Positions 4,610 through 64,000 of a DNA stretch of 64,000 nt are shown piece by piece. Each line of letters opens with the position of its first letter. Position 1 is the first letter of the stretch. A program made the translations under genes and the position numbers. The notes below the pieces were generated by a model, which was not told the origin of the DNA, searched no databases, and worked only from the letters and a program-made list of their open reading frames with translations. Source of the DNA: Escherichia phage vB_EcoM_SA21RB. The DNA lies in sequence record OL960580. The stretch is one strand, 5' to 3'.

Positions 4610-4981
4610 TCACTCAAATTTAATGGCTTGAAGAAGACTAATAATTCTCAAGCGACTTCTTTCATCTTTAACCGTAAATGAAAGAGGGTCACCAGATTTC
4701 ATAGTGATAGTACATTCAAAATCAAAATCTTCAGGAACTTCTTCGAAGAAGTCAAATTCTTCGTCATAAATTAGAACATTACTCTGAAAACTGTGAAGAA
4801 TTTTTCCATCATTTCCAGATGCTGTACTAATCATTGTAACATTATGGCCTTTCATATCTTCAACGATAAATTCGCTTGTAGATATTACGGCATTAATAGA
4901 ACCATTCCTATAAATAGAAGAAAGTAAATATTTCTTTTCTTCACCTTCGCGAACACGATATTTCTTACCGATTTTAAACAT
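4610..4981 (-). CDS. hypothetical protein
   Basis: 123-aa ORF with ATG start, tightly tiled with neighbours. Confidence 0.5.
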   Translation of the reverse strand: MFKIGKKYRVREGEEKKYLLSSIYRNGSINAVISTSEFIVEDMKGHNVTMISTASGNDGKILHSFQSNVLIYDEEFDFFEEVPEDFDFECTITMKSGDPLSFTVKDERSRLRIISLLQAIKFE

Positions 4982-4983
4982 AA

Positions 4984-5160
4984 TTACCCTTTAAGTAAGT
5001 CGTAAAAACCACCATTCACATGCTTAGGAGCAGAAGGCCGACGAGTAGACAGACGATGACATTTAGGGCAAACATCATTTTCTCGTTCAGAAATCTTTTT
5101 AATTTTTTCATATTCATGCCCGCAATCTTCGGATTGGCATTTATAATCATACATTGGCAT
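4984..5160 (-). CDS. FmdB-like zinc-ribbon small protein
   Basis: 58-aa ORF below the track cut-off: MPMYDYKCQSEDCGHEYE...CPKCHRLS has two CxxC pairs; fills the gap exactly. Confidence 0.5.
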   Translation of the reverse strand: MPMYDYKCQSEDCGHEYEKIKKISERENDVCPKCHRLSTRRPSAPKHVNGGFYDLLKG

Positions 5161-59802: not shown

Positions 59803-60264
59803 TCATTGAGTTTTAATTACTGCTTTAGAAGCCTTTCCTGGTAAACGACGACTGTTAATAATTGCCATCCTGCATTGAAGCGACGGGTCTTTGAACTTCG
59901 CATTAGGTTTACAAACTGTAAATCCAAGCCAAAGATTTCCATCTGTGATTTCTAAACGTCCAGGACGATATTCAACCCCATCAATAAAATCCTCGTCAAT
60001 GTCAGGACGAGGAGGCATACTCAGGAATTCATTAACTTCTAAAACATGGTCTTTTATTTTATGGAATAATTCAAAAACGTATGTCTCATCAATCTCCCGT
60101 TGAATTGCACGATCAAGAAGATGTTGAGAATATTTTAGATGAAACGATGAGACCCCTGCTGCTTTTGATGCCTCACGAATCTCATTGTTAATTTGACGAA
60201 ACTCCGACTCAAAGTGACGACGAAGCTTATTTCGACGGATAAAAACTTCTGTGTTGATAGTCAT
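59803..60264 (-). CDS. regB: RegB endoribonuclease
   Basis: 153 aa MTINTEVFIRRNKLRRHFESEF...; length and neighbourhood as in T4. Confidence 0.85.
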   Translation of the reverse strand: MTINTEVFIRRNKLRRHFESEFRQINNEIREASKAAGVSSFHLKYSQHLLDRAIQREIDETYVFELFHKIKDHVLEVNEFLSMPPRPDIDEDFIDGVEYRPGRLEITDGNLWLGFTVCKPNAKFKDPSLQCRMAIINSRRLPGKASKAVIKTQ

Positions 60265-60291
60265 GTTATTCTCCTCTTAACTGATAGAAAA

Positions 60292-60321
60292 ATTATACCA
60301 CAGTCAAGAGGAAAAGTAAAC
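60292..60321 (-). promoter_or_regulatory. T4-type early promoter for regB
   Basis: minus strand GTTTAC, 18 nt, TATAAT directly upstream of the regB SD and ATG. Confidence 0.5.
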
Positions 60322-60323
60322 AG

Positions 60324-60644
60324 TTATTCTTTAAATCTAATCAATTTATTCATAGACTTTGAAACTTCTGCACGAACCTCATGTAGATTTTTGAGCTGTT
60401 CAAGGCGCTGCGTATAGTAAGCAATTTCATCTTCTTCGAGACAGTCCTGTGAATCTTCTTTAAGATAACGTGCATAGTCCTGGAAAGCGTTACGGATTAC
60501 TTCCTGGAAATCATCAAGACTTTGAATTTTCTTAGGAGCAGCAGATACACGACGAGGGGCAGTATAATACTCATAACCAAACCCTGCACTTAATTGAGCC
60601 ATTAATATTTTTCCTCTGGTTGGAACATTGCACGACAAGCCCAC
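60324..60644 (-). CDS. hypothetical protein
   Basis: 106 aa. Confidence 0.5.
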
Positions 60645-60904
60645 ATACTGGCTTCTTTGAGTTTCGTTTTAGCAATAGTTAACTGATCGAGGCTTTCAGC
60701 ATAATTCTTCGCGAGTTCATCATCTTCACAGCTATCGAATGCTTCCCAGAATTCATCATATAAAGCATCAAAGATAAGTCCTAAACGAACTTCAGCGTCT
60801 TTGATAGCATTCACTTTACCGATTTTCTCTTCAGTATGCGGCTTATAACCTTTAATGTCTTCAATCATATTTGACTTCCTCACCAGTACATAAATCATAT
60901 TCAA
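60602..60904 (-). CDS. hypothetical acidic protein
   Basis: 100 aa; overlaps the neighbour by 43 nt, start uncertain. Confidence 0.45.
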
Positions 60905-61082
60905 CTAAACGAATAGGTTCATGAATGCCATATCCCTGAACAGAAATTTCTGTCGTAGGATAAATTCCATCAATATCACCCATATTCCACGCTTCGTTAA
61001 ATTGCTGTTCGCCTGAATTACTAAACCACTCGGCGAAAGCATTTAGCACATCTTTAGAACCTTCAATAATTATCTTTGCCAT
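60861..61082 (-). CDS. small hypothetical protein
   Basis: 73 aa. Confidence 0.45.
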   Translation of the reverse strand: MAKIIIEGSKDVLNAFAEWFSNSGEQQFNEAWNMGDIDGIYPTTEISVQGYGIHEPIRLVEYDLCTGEEVKYD

Positions 61083-61444
61083 TACAAACTCTCGGTAAAG
61101 GTACGAGCGATAACGTCGCGCTGCTGTTCCGGAGTCAGAGAGTTAAAGCGAACTGCATAACCGGATACACGGATGGTCAGCTGCGGATATTTTTCCGGAT
61201 GCTTAACTGCATCTTCCAGAGTTTCACGACGCAGAACGTTAACGTTCAGGTGTTGACCACCTTCAACTTTAACTGTAGGCTGTTGCTCAATTTCAATTTC
61301 ACGGGCATGCAAACCGTAGAAAATTTCTGGGTCTACAAAAGAGTCCTCTTTAAAGGTTTTAGAGACAATAATTCGTGCTTGAATACCATCTTCAAAATAA
61401 ATAGTACCTTTATGTGTGCCTTCAAGAATTTGATATGCTTTCAT
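61082..61444 (-). CDS. autonomous glycyl radical cofactor (GrcA/YfiD-like)
   Basis: 120 aa; C-terminal [25 protein letters not shown] glycine-radical signature. Confidence 0.7.
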
Positions 61445-61451
61445 ATAAACC

Positions 61452-61832
61452 TCAATTAGAAAATAAATTTATCCAAGATTGTTCTTTAATTAAAAATGGC
61501 TCAGAATCATATGCCATTAAACTCTGCGTGATTAGTCCTTTAAAAGGTCCATCAATAAATTCCATGGTAAAATATGGAATTTTATTCATTAGCCGTGCAT
61601 TAGGAGCAGTACATAAAACTTTGCATCCTTTGAATACACCCTTTTGTAATTTGTATTGCTTGGGATAAAATTCGCTCAAAATGTTATTATTTGCTAAAAT
61701 TTCAAAATGATTCACCAATTTATTTTTAATAGTTTTTGGCGAAAAATAAAGATATTCGAAAAGCTGAGTGTCTGTCATCATTGCATTCCGATTACGAAAA
61801 ACTGTGGACGAGTAATACCGCCAATACAACAT
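61452..61832 (-). CDS. hypothetical protein
   Basis: 126 aa; overlaps the upstream gene in another frame, start uncertain. Confidence 0.45.
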
Positions 61833-62317
61833 TTAATATTACAGCAGCAGTGTACGGTGTCAATATGGACACTATAAATCTTATCCATATCAGGAGATTT
61901 GACAGGCTCGTCAATTATATACAAAATTCGCGAAAGCGATAAACCTCTGAACTTGCTTCCTTTATTACCTATAAAACTGCGCACAGAATCAGTAAATAAA
62001 CGAAAACGTATATCATCATTAGAATAACGCGAAAATTCCTTTTTAATGTTATTTGCAGAAATTTTAGCGTAAGCTGAAGTATTAGAAAGAACAATAACTG
62101 TTCCACCGTCATACAACCAATTAGCGGCAAAATTAGTTACTGCAGTTGATTTACCAGATTGACGTCCACCATCTAGTCGAAGTGTGCAATACTGCTTAAG
62201 TAAGTCTTCAAATGGCGGGATATATTCGTTTTTACAAATTTCTTCTACTCTAGCGTCAGAATGGTGTGTAAAAGCATTCATCAGGGATAGATAAGGACCA
62301 GTTAAAAATGTTCTCAT
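61778..62317 (-). CDS. P-loop NTPase-like protein
   Basis: ORF track extends to 62365; ATG 62317 gives 179 aa; Walker A GGRQSGKST. Confidence 0.5.
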   Translation of the reverse strand: MRTFLTGPYLSLMNAFTHHSDARVEEICKNEYIPPFEDLLKQYCTLRLDGGRQSGKSTAVTNFAANWLYDGGTVIVLSNTSAYAKISANNIKKEFSRYSNDDIRFRLFTDSVRSFIGNKGSKFRGLSLSRILYIIDEPVKSPDMDKIYSVHIDTVHCCCNIKCCIGGITRPQFFVIGMQ

Positions 62318-62470
62318 TTTCTTCTCTCTAAATTTGGGCCATTCCATGGCGCATGAATTGTCCATTTCTGTATTTACCCATTACCGCACTTGGGCTCGAC
62401 CTTATTACAGGTTGGCGGGAATCCCTCATAGAATCATGAGGTCCAGCTTGTTCCCATATTTCTTATTTGC

Positions 62471-62944
62471 TTATTTGAATGATTTGACGTACTGAATAGA
62501 ACCTTTACTATTCACGAAAGCGATTTTACCATTTTTATTATACATGGTAGCAGTACGCTGATAGCCATAAGTTTGTTTACCAGATTGATAACCAACTAAT
62601 GCGAAATTATCTTCACCCATTTTATTCTGTTTAGCGCGAATACGTTCATGACCGTGTGCCATAAGAACCTTAGCATCACCAGTTGCAATGGATCGACGAG
62701 TTTTTTCATCTTCAACTGTATTAACAAAGTCGTCAAATGAATCAAATTTAGCATGAGATTTATTATACAGTTTTCCATCTACTGCATAATTATATCCTTG
62801 TACATCCATCTCAACTTCTGTACCATCATCCAATACAGCAGTGATTTTCTGACCTTTTTTAAATTTCAAAAGATCAGTAAAAGATTCAGCAATAATTTGA
62901 GAATTAATAGCTGCTTCAGTAATAAATTCTTGATATGTTTTCAT
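62471..62944 (-). CDS. internal-protein-like head protein with capsid targeting sequence
   Basis: 157 aa starting MKTYQEFITEA, the conserved N-terminal targeting sequence of T4 internal proteins; length differs from T4 IPII. Confidence 0.7.
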   Translation of the reverse strand: MKTYQEFITEAAINSQIIAESFTDLLKFKKGQKITAVLDDGTEVEMDVQGYNYAVDGKLYNKSHAKFDSFDDFVNTVEDEKTRRSIATGDAKVLMAHGHERIRAKQNKMGEDNFALVGYQSGKQTYGYQRTATMYNKNGKIAFVNSKGSIQYVKSFK

Positions 62945-62985
62945 ATGTTTCCTTTAAATGTAAATAGGTCTGAGTATTAGCTTTA

Positions 62986-63567
62986 TTAAGAATTACCACG
63001 GGCTGCATTAGCAACGGCGTAAGCGTACTGAACATTAGCGTCTTTAAACGTACCTTTAGAGGTATCTAGTTCTGCCTTAAAGCCGCCTTTAGTCATAACC
63101 TCGGCGAATTCTTTACGGAAAGCCATTGCATCAAGGCTTCTCCATGATGATTTGTGCTTGGCGAATTCAAGACCAGCGTAGTTGACAGCCTTAGCTAATT
63201 TATTATCAATAACCCATTTACCAGATTTAGGCACAAACACCGGGCCTTTCTGTTTAGAGAATAGTTTTAAATTCCAGCGACGAAGGTCACCGTCAGCTTT
63301 AACAAAAGCTGCGTCCAAGTTACTAGCAACAACATCTTGAATATGACCAAATTTAAGCCCATCAACTTCAATATTTAAATCGGTACGCCAGCGAAGTCCT
63401 TCCCAAGCGAAGGCTTTAAAGTCGGAAGCCTTTGTAGCTAAGTACCGTTCAATAGGAGCTGTTTTAGGGTCAAAGCCGTTTCCCGATCGGTAGGTCCACT
63501 CATCTTTATTAATGCCTTTGGCCTTTACTACAGAAGCTTCGGCAATAAATTCTTGATAGGTTTTCAT
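62986..63567 (-). CDS. ipIII: internal protein III
   Basis: 193 aa starting MKTYQEFIAEA; length matches T4 IPIII; directly upstream of e. Confidence 0.7.
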   Translation of the reverse strand: MKTYQEFIAEASVVKAKGINKDEWTYRSGNGFDPKTAPIERYLATKASDFKAFAWEGLRWRTDLNIEVDGLKFGHIQDVVASNLDAAFVKADGDLRRWNLKLFSKQKGPVFVPKSGKWVIDNKLAKAVNYAGLEFAKHKSSWRSLDAMAFRKEFAEVMTKGGFKAELDTSKGTFKDANVQYAYAVANAARGNS

Positions 63568-63627
63568 GTGTATCCTTTAAATGTAATTATTTTAATTAAT
63601 AATTTATCTCTTCAAGTAACTGTGAAT

Positions 63628-63657
63628 ATACTATCACAATTCCAAGAGAAAGTAAAC
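63628..63657 (-). promoter_or_regulatory. T4-type early promoter for the internal protein genes
   Basis: minus strand GTTTAC, 18 nt, TAGTAT between e and ipIII. Confidence 0.5.
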
Positions 63658-63661
63658 GGCT

Positions 63662-64000
<339 letters not shown>

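What the first reader, a model, noticed from the sequence alone, without database searches (positions are those of the whole stretch)
61452..62470. denV position holds a P-loop protein and a 150-bp non-coding stretch
Immediately upstream of the internal-protein genes, where T4 has denV, there is a 179-aa ORF with Walker A GGRQSGKST and an unusually long (about 150 bp) ORF-free segment at 62318-62470 with moderate GC and a hairpin (CCTCAT-AGAATC-ATGAGG). This may be a gene replacement scar, a structured RNA or a regulatory region.
Basis: partly seen in the sequence, partly recalled or inferred. Interest (0 to 1): 0.45.

Follow-up and report, generated by a model that had tools for sequence, protein, structure and literature searches.

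The report
Conserved structured RNA upstream of T4 vs.8
The P-loop gene is the ordinary T4 gene vs.8, but the "empty" 150 bases in front of it look like a previously undescribed folded RNA shared by over a thousand phage genomes, including T4, where it is annotated as protein-coding.

Summary
The window is a T4-like coliphage (98.8% identical to T4_ev240). The 179-aa Walker-A ORF (61778-62317, minus strand) is T4 gene vs.8 (PHROG 1488; 92% identical to T4 Vs.8), followed by vs.7. In T4 it sits beside denV, so it does not replace denV. This phage lacks denV and ipII and carries ip4 in the variable internal-protein cassette.

The 153-nt gap (62318-62470) is real and about 97% identical to T4. 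There, a 9-bp duplication plus a 1-nt deletion fuse it in frame to vs.8, so it is annotated as 40 extra N-terminal residues. No reading frame is conserved across relatives.

The stretch fits a conserved RNA fold:
- a small three-way junction with about 20 invariant loop and junction bases;
- a pseudoknot;
- two hairpins with GGA in the loop.

Covariation supports the helices. A covariance model finds one copy in the window (E 7.6e-23) and one upstream of 34 of 35 vs.8 homologues.

The same core occurs in unrelated phages (rV5-like, siphophages), usually inside or near tRNA gene arrays. It gave no match in bacterial genomes, Rfam or the searched literature. Its function is unknown. I think it is most likely an autonomous RNA module that binds a trans factor.

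The parts
61778..62317 (-). vs.8 coding sequence: 179 aa, a stand-alone P-loop (ASCE) ATPase domain
62144..62170 (-). Walker A motif DGGRQSGKS(T)
   Evidence: Invariant in 17 family members.
61904..61927 (-). Walker B motif ILYIIDEP
   Evidence: I134, I135, E137 and P138 are invariant and D136 is nearly so.
61452..61781 (-). vs.7 coding sequence (109 aa); its start overlaps the vs.8 stop
   Evidence: T4 Vs.7 is 98% identical. PHROG 2049 at E 5e-54. Relatives are annotated the same way.
62318..62470 (-). Whole intergenic RNA element, from the ip4 stop to the vs.8 start
   Evidence: About 97% identical to T4, where it is annotated as Vs.8 residues 1-40. 1,115 phage records hold a match. GC content is 43.8%. 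No Rfam match at E up to 10.
62417..62455 (-). 5' hairpin domain: helix H1 (GGGAA 62451-62455 pairs with UUCCC 62417-62421) enclosing hairpin P0
   Evidence: All five H1 pairs change on both sides across T4-like phages, and 94.8% of cells are paired. RNAalifold predicts H1 independently, and H1 appears in the single-sequence MFE fold.
62424..62441 (-).
   Evidence: A compensatory variant CCUUAU/AUAAGG occurs in L062, a U.G variant in RB32, and shorter versions with other loops in L029 and L065.
62365..62425 (-). Core motif as matched by covariance model R1
   Evidence: 73.6 bits, E 7.6e-23. It is the only significant match in the 64-kb window with filters off.
62378..62415 (-). Three-way junction: P1 CCA/UGG (62413-62415 with 62378-62380); P2 ACCU-GUAAUA-AGGU (62399-62412); J2/3 CGA; P3 GC(C)...(U)GC (62386-62395); J3/1 GGUAA (62381-62385)
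   Evidence: The closing pair of P1 is AU 23, UA 5, CG 4, UG 4, GC 1, with none unpaired. The outer pair of P2 changes from A-U to G-C in L098, L115 and the second copy of L022. The third pair of P3 is C.U, G.U, G-C or C-G in different lineages, and the second pair is U-A in the second copy of L022. A degenerate copy in L112 keeps the architecture with different helices.
62370..62372 (-). Pseudoknot partner UAC, pairing with GUA of the P2 loop (62406-62408)
   Evidence: In other T4-like phages GUAA pairs with UUAC. PG7 carries the compensatory GUGA/UCAC. 90% of cells are paired. In the T4-type register only 3 bp form (read by eye).
62338..62368 (-). 3' domain: two hairpins with invariant GGA in the loop (GAA-AUGGACA-UUC and GCCAU-GGA-AUGGC), ahead of the vs.8 ribosome-binding site
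   Evidence: Both GGA triplets are invariant in 23 divergent T4-like elements. H5 is 95.5% paired, and L094 has a compensatory GGCA/UGCC by hand alignment. The H5 block is duplicated on both sides of an inserted internal-protein gene in L096.
62471..62944 (-). ip4 (internal virion protein, DUF7412), the upstream neighbour in place of T4 denV and ipII
   Evidence: Pfam DUF7412 at E 5.7e-96. RB32 and Yersinia phage PST annotate the homologue as Ip4.
62986..63567 (-). ipIII (internal virion protein), context only
   Evidence: 93% identical to T4 IPIII.

Best explanation
**The ORFs.** The P-loop ORF is the conserved T4-like gene vs.8, with vs.7 behind it. It is a stand-alone ATPase domain of the helicase/terminase type and its role is unknown. 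Nothing has replaced denV. This phage has a different internal-protein cassette (ipIII, ip4) and no denV.

**The gap.** The 153 nt between ip4 and vs.8 are a conserved structured RNA, made on the minus strand as part of the transcript that reads into vs.8. The proposed fold has:
- a compact three-way junction (P1/P2/P3) whose loop and junction bases (CCUGU...AAGGUCNAGC...GCGGUAA) are almost invariant;
- a pseudoknot from the P2 loop to the 3' tail;
- two hairpins with GGA in the loop.

**How it most likely works.** The roughly 45-60-nt core is an autonomous module. The same sequence and fold occur in unrelated enterobacterial phages, embedded in sigma-70-driven non-coding and tRNA arrays. There it appears to be bracketed by long processing stems. 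The most likely mechanism is that the folded junction is recognised specifically by a trans factor conserved across Enterobacterales. That factor could be a host protein, a host RNA-processing enzyme, or less likely a small ligand. The RNA would then act as a discrete or processed RNA, as the T4 stable RNAs rnaC and rnaD are made. Any effect on vs.8 translation in T4-like phages would be secondary.

**Shown:** conservation, distribution, strand, covariation, absence of a conserved ORF.
**Inferred:** transcription, processing, and the trans-factor mechanism.
For: **Identity of the ORFs:**

**Conservation**
- About 97% identity to T4 across the gap.
- 1,115 phage records match.
- The core is 86-97% identical over 32-45 nt in Vequintavirus, Winklervirus, Karamvirus and phage Ivi.
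- Exact-pattern hits: 26 and 39 viral contigs and 29 metagenome contigs.
- Zero hits in 185,579 species genomes and no match in 5,426 E. coli genomes.

**Structure**
- Core alignment A2: 87% of cells paired against 81% when shuffled. Covariation score 0.183 against 0.065, reached by 0 of 500 shuffles.
- Full T4-like alignment A4: 91.9% against 84.2%, and 0.249 against 0.101, reached by 0 of 500 shuffles. Slid controls reach at most 0.095. All five H1 pairs change on both sides.
- RNAalifold independently finds H1, P2, P3 and H5.
- G.U pairs in P1, the pseudoknot and P3 fit the minus strand only.

**Not coding**
- T4 fuses the frame only through a 9-bp duplication and a 1-nt deletion.
- JS98-like and rV5-like versions have stops and 1-2-nt indels.
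- The vs.8 family N-terminus starts at the downstream ATG.

**Autonomy of the core**
- The motif lies on the same strand within about 50-1,200 nt of tRNA genes in six independent non-T4-like lineages, and inside a tRNA array in L057.
- A TTGACA-17-TAGATT promoter heads the 1.2-kb non-coding array in L012, with no terminator before the tRNAs.
- Long stems lie between modules.
- No vs.8 homologue lies near the motif outside T4-like phages.
- L113 has vs.8 without the motif.
- In L096 an internal-protein gene sits between the motif and vs.8.
Against: - There is no expression, end-mapping or probing data for this RNA. The papers searched say nothing about it.
- P2 and P3 are nearly invariant in sequence, so most covariation comes from H1, the closing pair of P1 and a few variant copies.
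- My energy-based permutation tests were weak: p = 0.044 for P1 and p = 0.076 for a cross-lineage H1.
- The helix registers were chosen partly by eye.
- Near-identity of the core between unrelated phages could partly reflect recent horizontal transfer rather than constraint.
- The strict synteny with vs.8 in T4-like phages, 34 of 35 loci, also fits a cis-regulatory role.
Confidence: 0.6

Rival explanations
1. The element is a cis-acting leader of vs.8, riboswitch-like or a protein-binding operator. A ligand or protein would bind the three-way junction and stabilise the pseudoknot. The pseudoknot competes with helix H4 for the bases ACAU. That competition would change how the two GGA hairpins and the vs.8 ribosome-binding site are presented.
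For: - The motif lies on the same strand upstream of vs.8 in 34 of 35 loci: 47-240 nt before the start in 30 loci, and about 450-530 nt in the four with an inserted gene.
- It fills the whole gap from the upstream stop codon to the ribosome-binding site.
- The pseudoknot and H4 share two columns, and each is 86-90% paired.
- An invariant junction with variable helices is typical of an aptamer.
- Two invariant GGA-loop hairpins resemble CsrA-type sites (the CsrA consensus is from my own knowledge).
Against: - Outside T4-like phages the same core has no vs.8 and usually no ORF downstream. It sits in tRNA and non-coding arrays.
- L113 keeps vs.8 without the motif.
- In L096 another gene separates the motif from vs.8.
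- No pairing that sequesters the ribosome-binding site was found.
- In T4-type sequences H4 is only about 3 bp (read by eye).
- Conserved gene order in the vs block could explain the synteny on its own.
Confidence: 0.25
2. The stretch is a DNA-level feature: a recombination or homing hot spot at the edge of the hyperplastic internal-protein region, or a mobile non-coding cassette spread among phages. On this reading it is conserved because it moves, not because of an RNA function.
For: - It marks the boundary between the variable internal-protein/denV cassette and the conserved vs block.
- The H5 block is duplicated around an inserted internal-protein gene in L096.
- Tandem degenerate second copies exist.
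- A near-identical core occurs in unrelated phages.
- Conserved intergenic cassettes (PeSLs) that drive gene shuffling are known in T4-type phages (PMC4122927).
Against: - Compensatory changes and G.U-compatible changes on one strand point to selection on an RNA fold.
- The orientation always matches the flanking genes or tRNAs.
- The PeSL signature is absent. That signature is an AGNA-loop-TCNT stem plus a TTTACW-N17-TAYWAT promoter.
- No inverted terminal repeats or homing-endonuclease gene lie beside it in the loci examined.
Confidence: 0.08
3. The stretch is protein-coding: either a real N-terminal extension of Vs.8, as annotated in T4 (219 aa) and by gene callers elsewhere (195 aa), or a small leader peptide.
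For: - T4 RefSeq annotates a 219-aa Vs.8 that runs through the element.
- A cluster of 1,051 database sequences uses the 195-aa start.
- The window has the in-frame ATG at 62365 and a 33-aa ORF.
Against: - Three different frames or starts are used in near-identical sequences.
- In T4 the frame is joined only by a 9-bp tandem duplication and a 1-nt deletion.
- JS98-like, Karam-like and rV5-like versions carry stops and 1-2-nt indels.
- The PHROG profile and the family alignment begin at M(R/K)TFLT.
- The core is also conserved in phages where no ORF is annotated over it.
Confidence: 0.04

Closest known systems
T4 gene vs.8 (NP_049732) and PHROG 1488
   Same: The ORF is this gene. It is 92% identical and has the same neighbours (vs.7, vs.6/GrcA, regB) and the same Walker A and B motifs.
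   Different: T4's annotated protein is 40 residues longer. That is because the upstream RNA element is fused in frame in T4 by a duplication and a deletion. The shorter 179-aa form is the family norm.
T4 stable RNAs rnaC and rnaD (species 1 and 2), co-transcribed with the T4 tRNA cluster
   Same: These too are phage-encoded, non-coding, structured RNAs of about 120-140 nt, linked to tRNA arrays, and of unknown function (PMC9697503). The 5' part of rnaD matches a module in the same metagenomic tRNA array (L057) that carries this motif.
   Different: There is no sequence similarity to the element (one search found matches only to rnaC and rnaD orthologues). In T4-like phages the element lies outside the fetched T4 tRNA cluster region, between the internal-protein cassette and vs.8. 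No stable RNA from this locus has been reported.
PeSL promoter/stem-loop cassettes of T4-type hyperplastic regions (Arbiol 2010; Comeau 2014, PMC4122927)
   Same: Both are conserved intergenic cassettes at the edge of a hyperplastic region, associated with gene shuffling. The H5 block is duplicated around an inserted gene.
   Different: The element has no early promoter and no AGNA-loop-TCNT terminator-like stem. It is much larger, has covarying helices, and is shared with phages that are not T4-like.
Riboswitch aptamers and other small three-way-junction or pseudoknot RNAs
   Same: Compact junction, invariant junction and loop nucleotides, variable helices, a pseudoknot, and a possible alternative pairing next to a ribosome-binding site.
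   Different: It matches no Rfam family. No ligand is known. There is no consistent downstream gene outside T4-like phages. P2 and P3 hardly vary.
ATPase domain of large terminase subunits and domain 1 of SF2 helicases
   Different: It is a single 179-aa domain with no nuclease domain and no second RecA domain. It is not placed next to packaging genes. Sequence similarity is below the Pfam thresholds.
CsrA-binding leaders and CsrB-type sponge RNAs
   Same: Two invariant GGA triplets are presented in hairpin loops about 20 nt apart, close to a ribosome-binding site.
   Different: The resemblance is by sequence only. It applies to the 3' domain of the T4-like version, not to the shared core, and it was not tested.

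Membership tests
T4 Vs.8 family (PHROG 1488) | Full-length sequence match to the family profile | tested here: met
   E 7.4e-80 over residues 3-179 of the protein and 2-177 of the 177-position profile. 92% identical to T4 Vs.8.
T4 Vs.8 family (PHROG 1488) | Synteny: vs.7, vs.6 (GrcA), vs.5 and regB downstream on the same strand | tested here: met
DenV (T4 endonuclease V, pyrimidine-dimer glycosylase) | Sequence similarity to T4 DenV at this locus or anywhere in the window | tested here: not met
   tblastn of T4 DenV against the window: best E-value 3.8, which is noise. Pfam gives no Pyr_excise hit for the ORFs scanned.
Large terminase subunit | ATPase domain with Walker A and B motifs | tested here: met
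Large terminase subunit | C-terminal nuclease domain and a Pfam match above threshold | tested here: not met
   The protein is one 179-aa domain. Terminase_6N scores 14.1 bits against a cut-off of 22.
Any Rfam 15 family | Covariance-model match | tested here: not met
   No relevant match at E up to 10 in 61000-63000. In 11 other loci that carry the motif, only tRNAs reach gathering score.
tRNA or tRNA-like RNA | Cloverleaf detected, or sequence similarity to tRNAs | tested here: not met
   ARAGORN finds none in 60000-64000. Local alignment to 60 phage tRNAs is no better than for shuffled sequence.
PeSL cassette | Terminator-like stem-loop followed by an early promoter (TTTACW-N17-TAYWAT) | tested here: not met
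   No promoter-like site on the minus strand within 62318-62470 and no terminator-like site there. The consensus is taken from PMC4122927.
Intrinsic terminator | GC-rich hairpin followed by a run of U | tested here: not met
   The hairpin is followed by GAUUCCC.
Riboswitch | Conserved aptamer with covarying helices | tested here: inconclusive
   Covariation is present in H1, P1 and the variant copies, but P2 and P3 are almost invariant.
Riboswitch | Consistent downstream gene class and a ligand | tested here: not met
   The downstream gene is vs.8 only in T4-like phages. Elsewhere the motif sits in tRNA or non-coding arrays. Ligand binding cannot be tested with these tools.
Stable RNA co-transcribed with tRNAs (the rnaC/rnaD kind) | Same-strand linkage to tRNA genes within a non-coding transcription unit | tested here: met
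   Met in six non-T4-like lineages. Not met in the window: ARAGORN finds no tRNA in 60000-64000, and the rest of the window was not scanned.
Stable RNA co-transcribed with tRNAs (the rnaC/rnaD kind) | A discrete, stable, processed RNA species | not testable with these tools
   This needs Northern blots or RNA-seq.
CsrA-regulated leader | Two or more GGA motifs in hairpin loops near the ribosome-binding site | tested here: met
   Both GGA triplets are invariant in alignment A4. H5 is 95.5% paired. CsrA binding itself cannot be tested here.

The most novel reading that the evidence does not exclude
The core three-way-junction RNA is a new class of phage-encoded functional RNA. It is shared by T4-like, rV5-like and siphoviral enterobacterial phages and expressed with tRNA arrays or early genes. 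On this reading it acts in trans as a decoy, inhibitor or aptamer for a conserved host or defence factor, for example an RNA-processing enzyme, an RNA-targeting enzyme or a signalling nucleotide. In T4 it would sit in a neighbourhood of counter-defence genes (internal proteins; Vs.4/Acb2, from my own knowledge) and would have been missed because T4 annotates it as the N-terminus of Vs.8.
Probability: 0.3. Interest if true: 0.85.

Novelty: new variant of a known kind. Interest (0 to 1): 0.62.

Why it matters
- **An overlooked element in a model phage.** T4 is the best-studied lytic phage, yet this element appears to have been overlooked because a T4-specific indel makes it look like coding sequence.
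- **An annotation correction.** If this is right, the T4 Vs.8 annotation should be shortened to about 179 aa. In NC_000866 coordinates the CDS would be 64253-64792 and the RNA about 64793-64938.
- **A new RNA family.** The family would be present in more than 1,000 sequenced phages, many of them therapy candidates infecting E. coli, Klebsiella, Shigella, Salmonella and Yersinia.
- **A link to unexplained phage RNAs.** Its core sits inside tRNA and non-coding arrays of unrelated phages. That connects it to the long-standing question of what the non-tRNA small RNAs of phage tRNA clusters, such as rnaC and rnaD, actually do.
- **A testable target.** It gives a defined, mutable 45-60-nt motif for experiments.

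The P-loop gene itself is ordinary and remains of unknown function.

Tried and rejected
1. **denV remnant or replacement.** DenV has no tblastn match in the window, and the stretch is homologous to T4 sequence downstream of denV.
2. **Known RNA family.** Rfam gave nothing in E-value mode on the locus or at gathering score on 11 related loci.
3. **Degenerate tRNA.** I suspected a tRNA-Tyr-like origin because of CUGUAA and AAGGUCGAGCC. Alignment to 60 phage tRNAs and to E. coli tRNA-Tyr was no better than for shuffled sequence, and ARAGORN found nothing.
4. **Host mimicry or host origin.** No match in 5,426 E. coli genomes and none for the 23-nt pattern in 185,579 species genomes. Short complementarities of 20 nt or less could not be tested.
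5. **PeSL, promoters, terminator.**
   - No sigma-70-like site on the sense strand and no terminator.
   - The GUUUAC in JS98-like versions resembles a T4 early -35 box, but the -10 is not conserved (read).
   - A MotA-box-like ATTTGCTTA and a sigma-54-like TGGCGC-N5-TTGT lie on the antisense strand and are not conserved in relatives.
6. **Conserved upstream ORF** (MDNSCAMEWP, compared with MDELCAKEWP in JS98-like phages). Rejected because several lineages lack the start codon and have 1-2-nt indels.
7. **Thermodynamic signal.** MFE z-scores are not significant on either strand or in 12 lineages.
8. **Energy-based permutation tests.** p = 0.044 for P1 and p = 0.076 for a cross-lineage H1. Both are weak.
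9. **vs.8 homologue next to the motif in phages that are not T4-like.** None found.
10. **Literature.** Nothing was found for vs.8, for sequence strings of the motif, or for T4 small RNAs at this locus. The supplement of the catalogue of 10,006 viral candidate structured RNAs is not held, so I could not check it.
11. **Vs.8 function by fold.** The result is only a generic ASCE helicase/terminase domain.
Full report
**Identity of the locus**

The window is a Tequatrovirus. A 2-kb query around the finding is 98.8% identical to phage T4_ev240 and matches 889 phage records. All genes here are on the minus strand.

The order in the window is e (lysozyme), ipIII (62986-63567), ip4 (62471-62944, DUF7412), a 153-nt gap, a P-loop ORF, a 109-aa ORF, then GrcA/vs.6 (61082-61444). 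The annotated relatives RB32, slur14 and T4_ev240 name the two ORFs vs.8 and vs.7.

In T4 the order is vs.6, vs.7, vs.8, denV, ipII, ipIII, e. So the P-loop gene is not in the place of denV. It is denV's normal neighbour. What differs is the internal-protein cassette, which is known to be polymorphic. T4 has denV and ipII, slur14 has ip4 and denV, RB32 has ip4 only, and this phage has ipIII and ip4. tblastn with T4 proteins confirms this: Vs.8 92%, Vs.7 98%, IPIII 93%, and no DenV match anywhere in the 64 kb.

**The P-loop protein**

- It matches PHROG 1488 (function unknown) at E 7.4e-80 over the full 177-position profile. It matches the terminase large subunit only weakly (PHROG 2 at E 3e-6; Pfam Terminase_6N is below threshold).
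- Homologues are confined to T4-like phages of enterobacteria, down to 40% identity. Most are 173-181 aa. All begin M(R/K)TFLT..YLSLMNAF and have invariant DGGRQSGK and IIDEP motifs. That fixes the start at the ATG at 62317.

Vs.8 is therefore a stand-alone helicase/terminase-type ATPase domain of unknown role. It is an already known gene.

**The gap is conserved, and T4 annotates it as coding**

Aligned with T4, RB32, slur14 and T4_ev240, the 153 nt are nearly identical.

T4 annotates a 219-aa Vs.8 whose first 40 residues are translated from this stretch. The alignment shows why. T4 has a 9-bp tandem duplication (CTTATAGAG twice) and one A fewer just upstream of the MRTFLT codon, which fuses an upstream 33-codon ORF to vs.8. 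In the window that ORF ends at a TAG. Gene callers elsewhere pick yet another in-frame ATG (195 aa), and RB32 uses a third start.

In JS98-like, Karam-like and rV5-like versions the region has stops and 1-2-nt indels. No reading frame is conserved, so selection acts on the nucleotides.

**Distribution**

- A blastn search with 181 nt finds 1,115 phage records.
- Beyond T4-like genera, a core of about 32-45 nt is 86-97% identical in Vequintavirus (FV3, nomo), phage Ivi (45 kb) and others. In those genomes it is unannotated and intergenic.
- Exact-pattern scans found it in 26 and 39 viral contigs and 29 metagenome contigs. These include 46-kb siphophage-like contigs and GC-rich environmental contigs.
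- It was not found in one genome per species of 185,579 bacteria and archaea, nor in 5,426 E. coli genomes.
- Rfam has no match, either in E-value mode on the locus or at gathering score on 11 other loci, where only tRNAs are found.
- I found no paper that mentions it.

**Structure**

Reading the minus strand, the invariant core is (P1)-ACCU GURRNA AGGU-CNA-GC(N) N3-5 (N)GC-GGUAA-(P1').

On a 37-sequence core alignment (A2):
- The closing P1 pair is AU 23, UA 5, CG 4, UG 4, GC 1, with none unpaired.
- 87% of cells pair against 81% in shuffles. The covariation score is 0.183 against 0.065, reached by 0 of 500 shuffles.

P2 and P3 are almost invariant, but the rare variants are compensatory:
- The outer pair of P2 changes from A-U to G-C in L098, L115 and the second copy in L022.
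- The third pair of P3 is C.U, G.U, G-C or C-G in different lineages, and the second pair is U-A in the second copy in L022.
- A degenerate tandem copy in L112 keeps P1, a longer P2, a 5-bp P3 and UAA with quite different sequences.

On a 23-sequence alignment of whole T4-like elements (A4):
- Helix H1 (GGGAA/UUCCC in T4; AAAGG/CCUUU, AAAGC/GCUUU, AAAGA/UCUUU and GGGAG/CUCCC in others) changes on both sides at all five pairs.
- Overall 91.9% of cells pair against 84.2%. Covariation is 0.249 against 0.101, reached by 0 of 500 shuffles, and slid controls reach at most 0.095.
- RNAalifold independently returns H1, P2, P3 and H5.
It has one compensatory variant (CCUUAU/AUAAGG in L062) and a U.G variant in RB32.
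- The P2 loop (GUAA) can pair with UUAC just after P1'. PG7 has the compensatory GUGA/UCAC.
- That pseudoknot shares two bases with an alternative helix H4 (ACAU/AUGU).
- The 3' part has two invariant GGA triplets in hairpin loops.
- G.U pairs in P1, the pseudoknot and P3 fit only the minus strand.

A covariance model built from A2 finds:
- exactly one significant hit in the window, at 62365-62425, 73.6 bits, E 7.6e-23;
- all the pattern-defined members among the loci searched;
- a hit on the same strand upstream of 34 of 35 independently collected vs.8 homologues.

Caveats:
- Single-sequence folds are not unusually stable.
- My energy-based permutation tests are weak.
- Some helix registers were set by eye.

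**Context outside T4-like phages**

In rV5-like phages the motif lies about 570-600 nt upstream of the tRNA cluster on the same strand.

In the 46-kb siphophage contigs it lies in a 1.2-kb non-coding stretch between tail genes, on the opposite strand to them. That stretch is headed by a TTGACA-17-TAGATT promoter and ends in four tRNAs with no terminator between.

In L057 the motif is flanked by tRNAs on both sides. In L076 it starts about 47 nt after a tRNA. In L041/L042 and in L014/L052 tRNAs lie within 0.7-1.2 kb.

In these arrays the modules are bracketed by long complementary segments (ACAACAGGUAAGAGCA with UGCUCUUAUCGUUGUG). These look like double-strand processing sites (this is inference).

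No vs.8 homologue lies near the motif in these phages. Conversely, L113 has vs.8 without the motif. In L096 an extra internal-protein gene sits between motif and vs.8, with the H5 block duplicated on both sides.

**Interpretation**

The evidence favours a functional structured RNA over coding sequence, a scar or a DNA site. The core behaves as an autonomous module whose sequence, not only its fold, is constrained across unrelated phages of Enterobacterales. I therefore think it is most likely recognised by a conserved trans factor and works as a discrete or processed RNA, as rnaC and rnaD are made. The function of rnaC and rnaD is still unknown (PMC9697503).

A cis role on vs.8, through competition between the pseudoknot and H4 and through the GGA hairpins, is the main rival. 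The two could coexist in T4-like phages.

The T4 neighbourhood contains counter-defence genes: the internal proteins, and Vs.4/Acb2 (from my own knowledge). Phage tRNA arrays are themselves used against tRNA-targeting defences (PMC13096335). An anti-defence role is therefore a reasonable guess, but it is untested.

The element is not a PeSL, not a tRNA derivative and not a terminator.

**Verdict**

The headline of the finding, denV replaced by a P-loop gene, is wrong, and that gene is ordinary. It leads to a widely distributed RNA motif that appears undescribed, and to a probable mis-annotation of T4 Vs.8. The function remains open.

Noticed in passing
L004 (T4 NC_000866.4) locus 4793-4830, record about 64792-64829: T4 carries a 9-bp tandem duplication (CTTATAGAG twice) and a 1-nt deletion in an A-run just upstream of the conserved vs.8 start. 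Together they fuse an upstream 33-codon ORF to vs.8, which explains the 219-aa annotation.
   Followed up: yes
L012 4774-5960 (minus strand); also L014, L017, L024, L028, L052, L057: Siphophage-like contigs carry a non-coding array of about 1.2 kb: a sigma-70-like promoter, several structured modules bracketed by long complementary segments, then tRNAs. It lies antisense to the flanking tail genes. None of the non-tRNA modules is in Rfam.
   Followed up: partly
L077 (HK620 NC_002730) 2001-2278, between pR'/qut and the late terminator tQ: Other modules of the L012 array, not the motif studied here, are 89% identical to the leader of the late transcript of the lambdoid/P22-like phages HK620 and HK633. 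The 801-nt L012 query, which also contains the motif studied here, matched 1,422 phage records in all, including Salmonella, Erwinia and Felixounavirus phages. This may be a second widespread family of phage non-coding modules.
   Followed up: no
L057 1663-1698 (minus strand): The 5' 36 nt of T4 stable RNA rnaD are 86% identical to a module in a metagenomic tRNA array that also holds the motif.
   Followed up: no
L022 about 5085-5143; L026 9129-9187; L073 471-529; L112 downstream of 1350: Karamvirus-like phages carry a second, degenerate tandem copy of the element between the first copy and vs.8. Its helix sequences differ but the architecture is the same.
   Followed up: partly
L096 1068-1421; similar layout in L097, L099, L109: An extra internal-protein gene (MKTYKEFITEA...) is inserted between the RNA element and vs.8. 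The 17-nt block GUGCCAAGGAAYGGCCC is repeated on both sides, which looks like the trace of a recombination event.
   Followed up: partly
L008 (phage Ivi) about 2300-2650: The motif is flanked by two small units, each with a TTGACA-type promoter and an intrinsic terminator. These look like separate small RNA genes. One overlaps an annotated 38-aa ORF.
   Followed up: no
window 60602-60868 (minus strand): This is the vs.4 homologue. T4 Vs.4 has been reported as a cGAMP-binding anti-CBASS protein (Acb2 family; from my own knowledge, not tested here). That places the locus in a counter-defence neighbourhood together with the internal proteins.
   Followed up: no
window 62345-62360 and 62459-62467 (plus strand): Two motifs lie antisense to the genes: a sigma-54-like TGGCGC-N5-TTGT and a MotA-box-like ATTTGCTTA. 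Neither is conserved in JS98-like relatives, so they are probably chance.
   Followed up: partly
one search hit list (for example MG065682 'Campylobacter phage A112b', 135 kb): Eighteen records labelled as Campylobacter phages carry the rV5-like version of the motif and have rV5-like genome sizes. This may be mislabelling or contamination in GenBank.
   Followed up: no
window 61778-61781: The vs.8 stop codon and the vs.7 start codon overlap, which suggests translational coupling. The 126-aa ORF listed for vs.7 is an over-extension of the 109-aa gene.
   Followed up: partly
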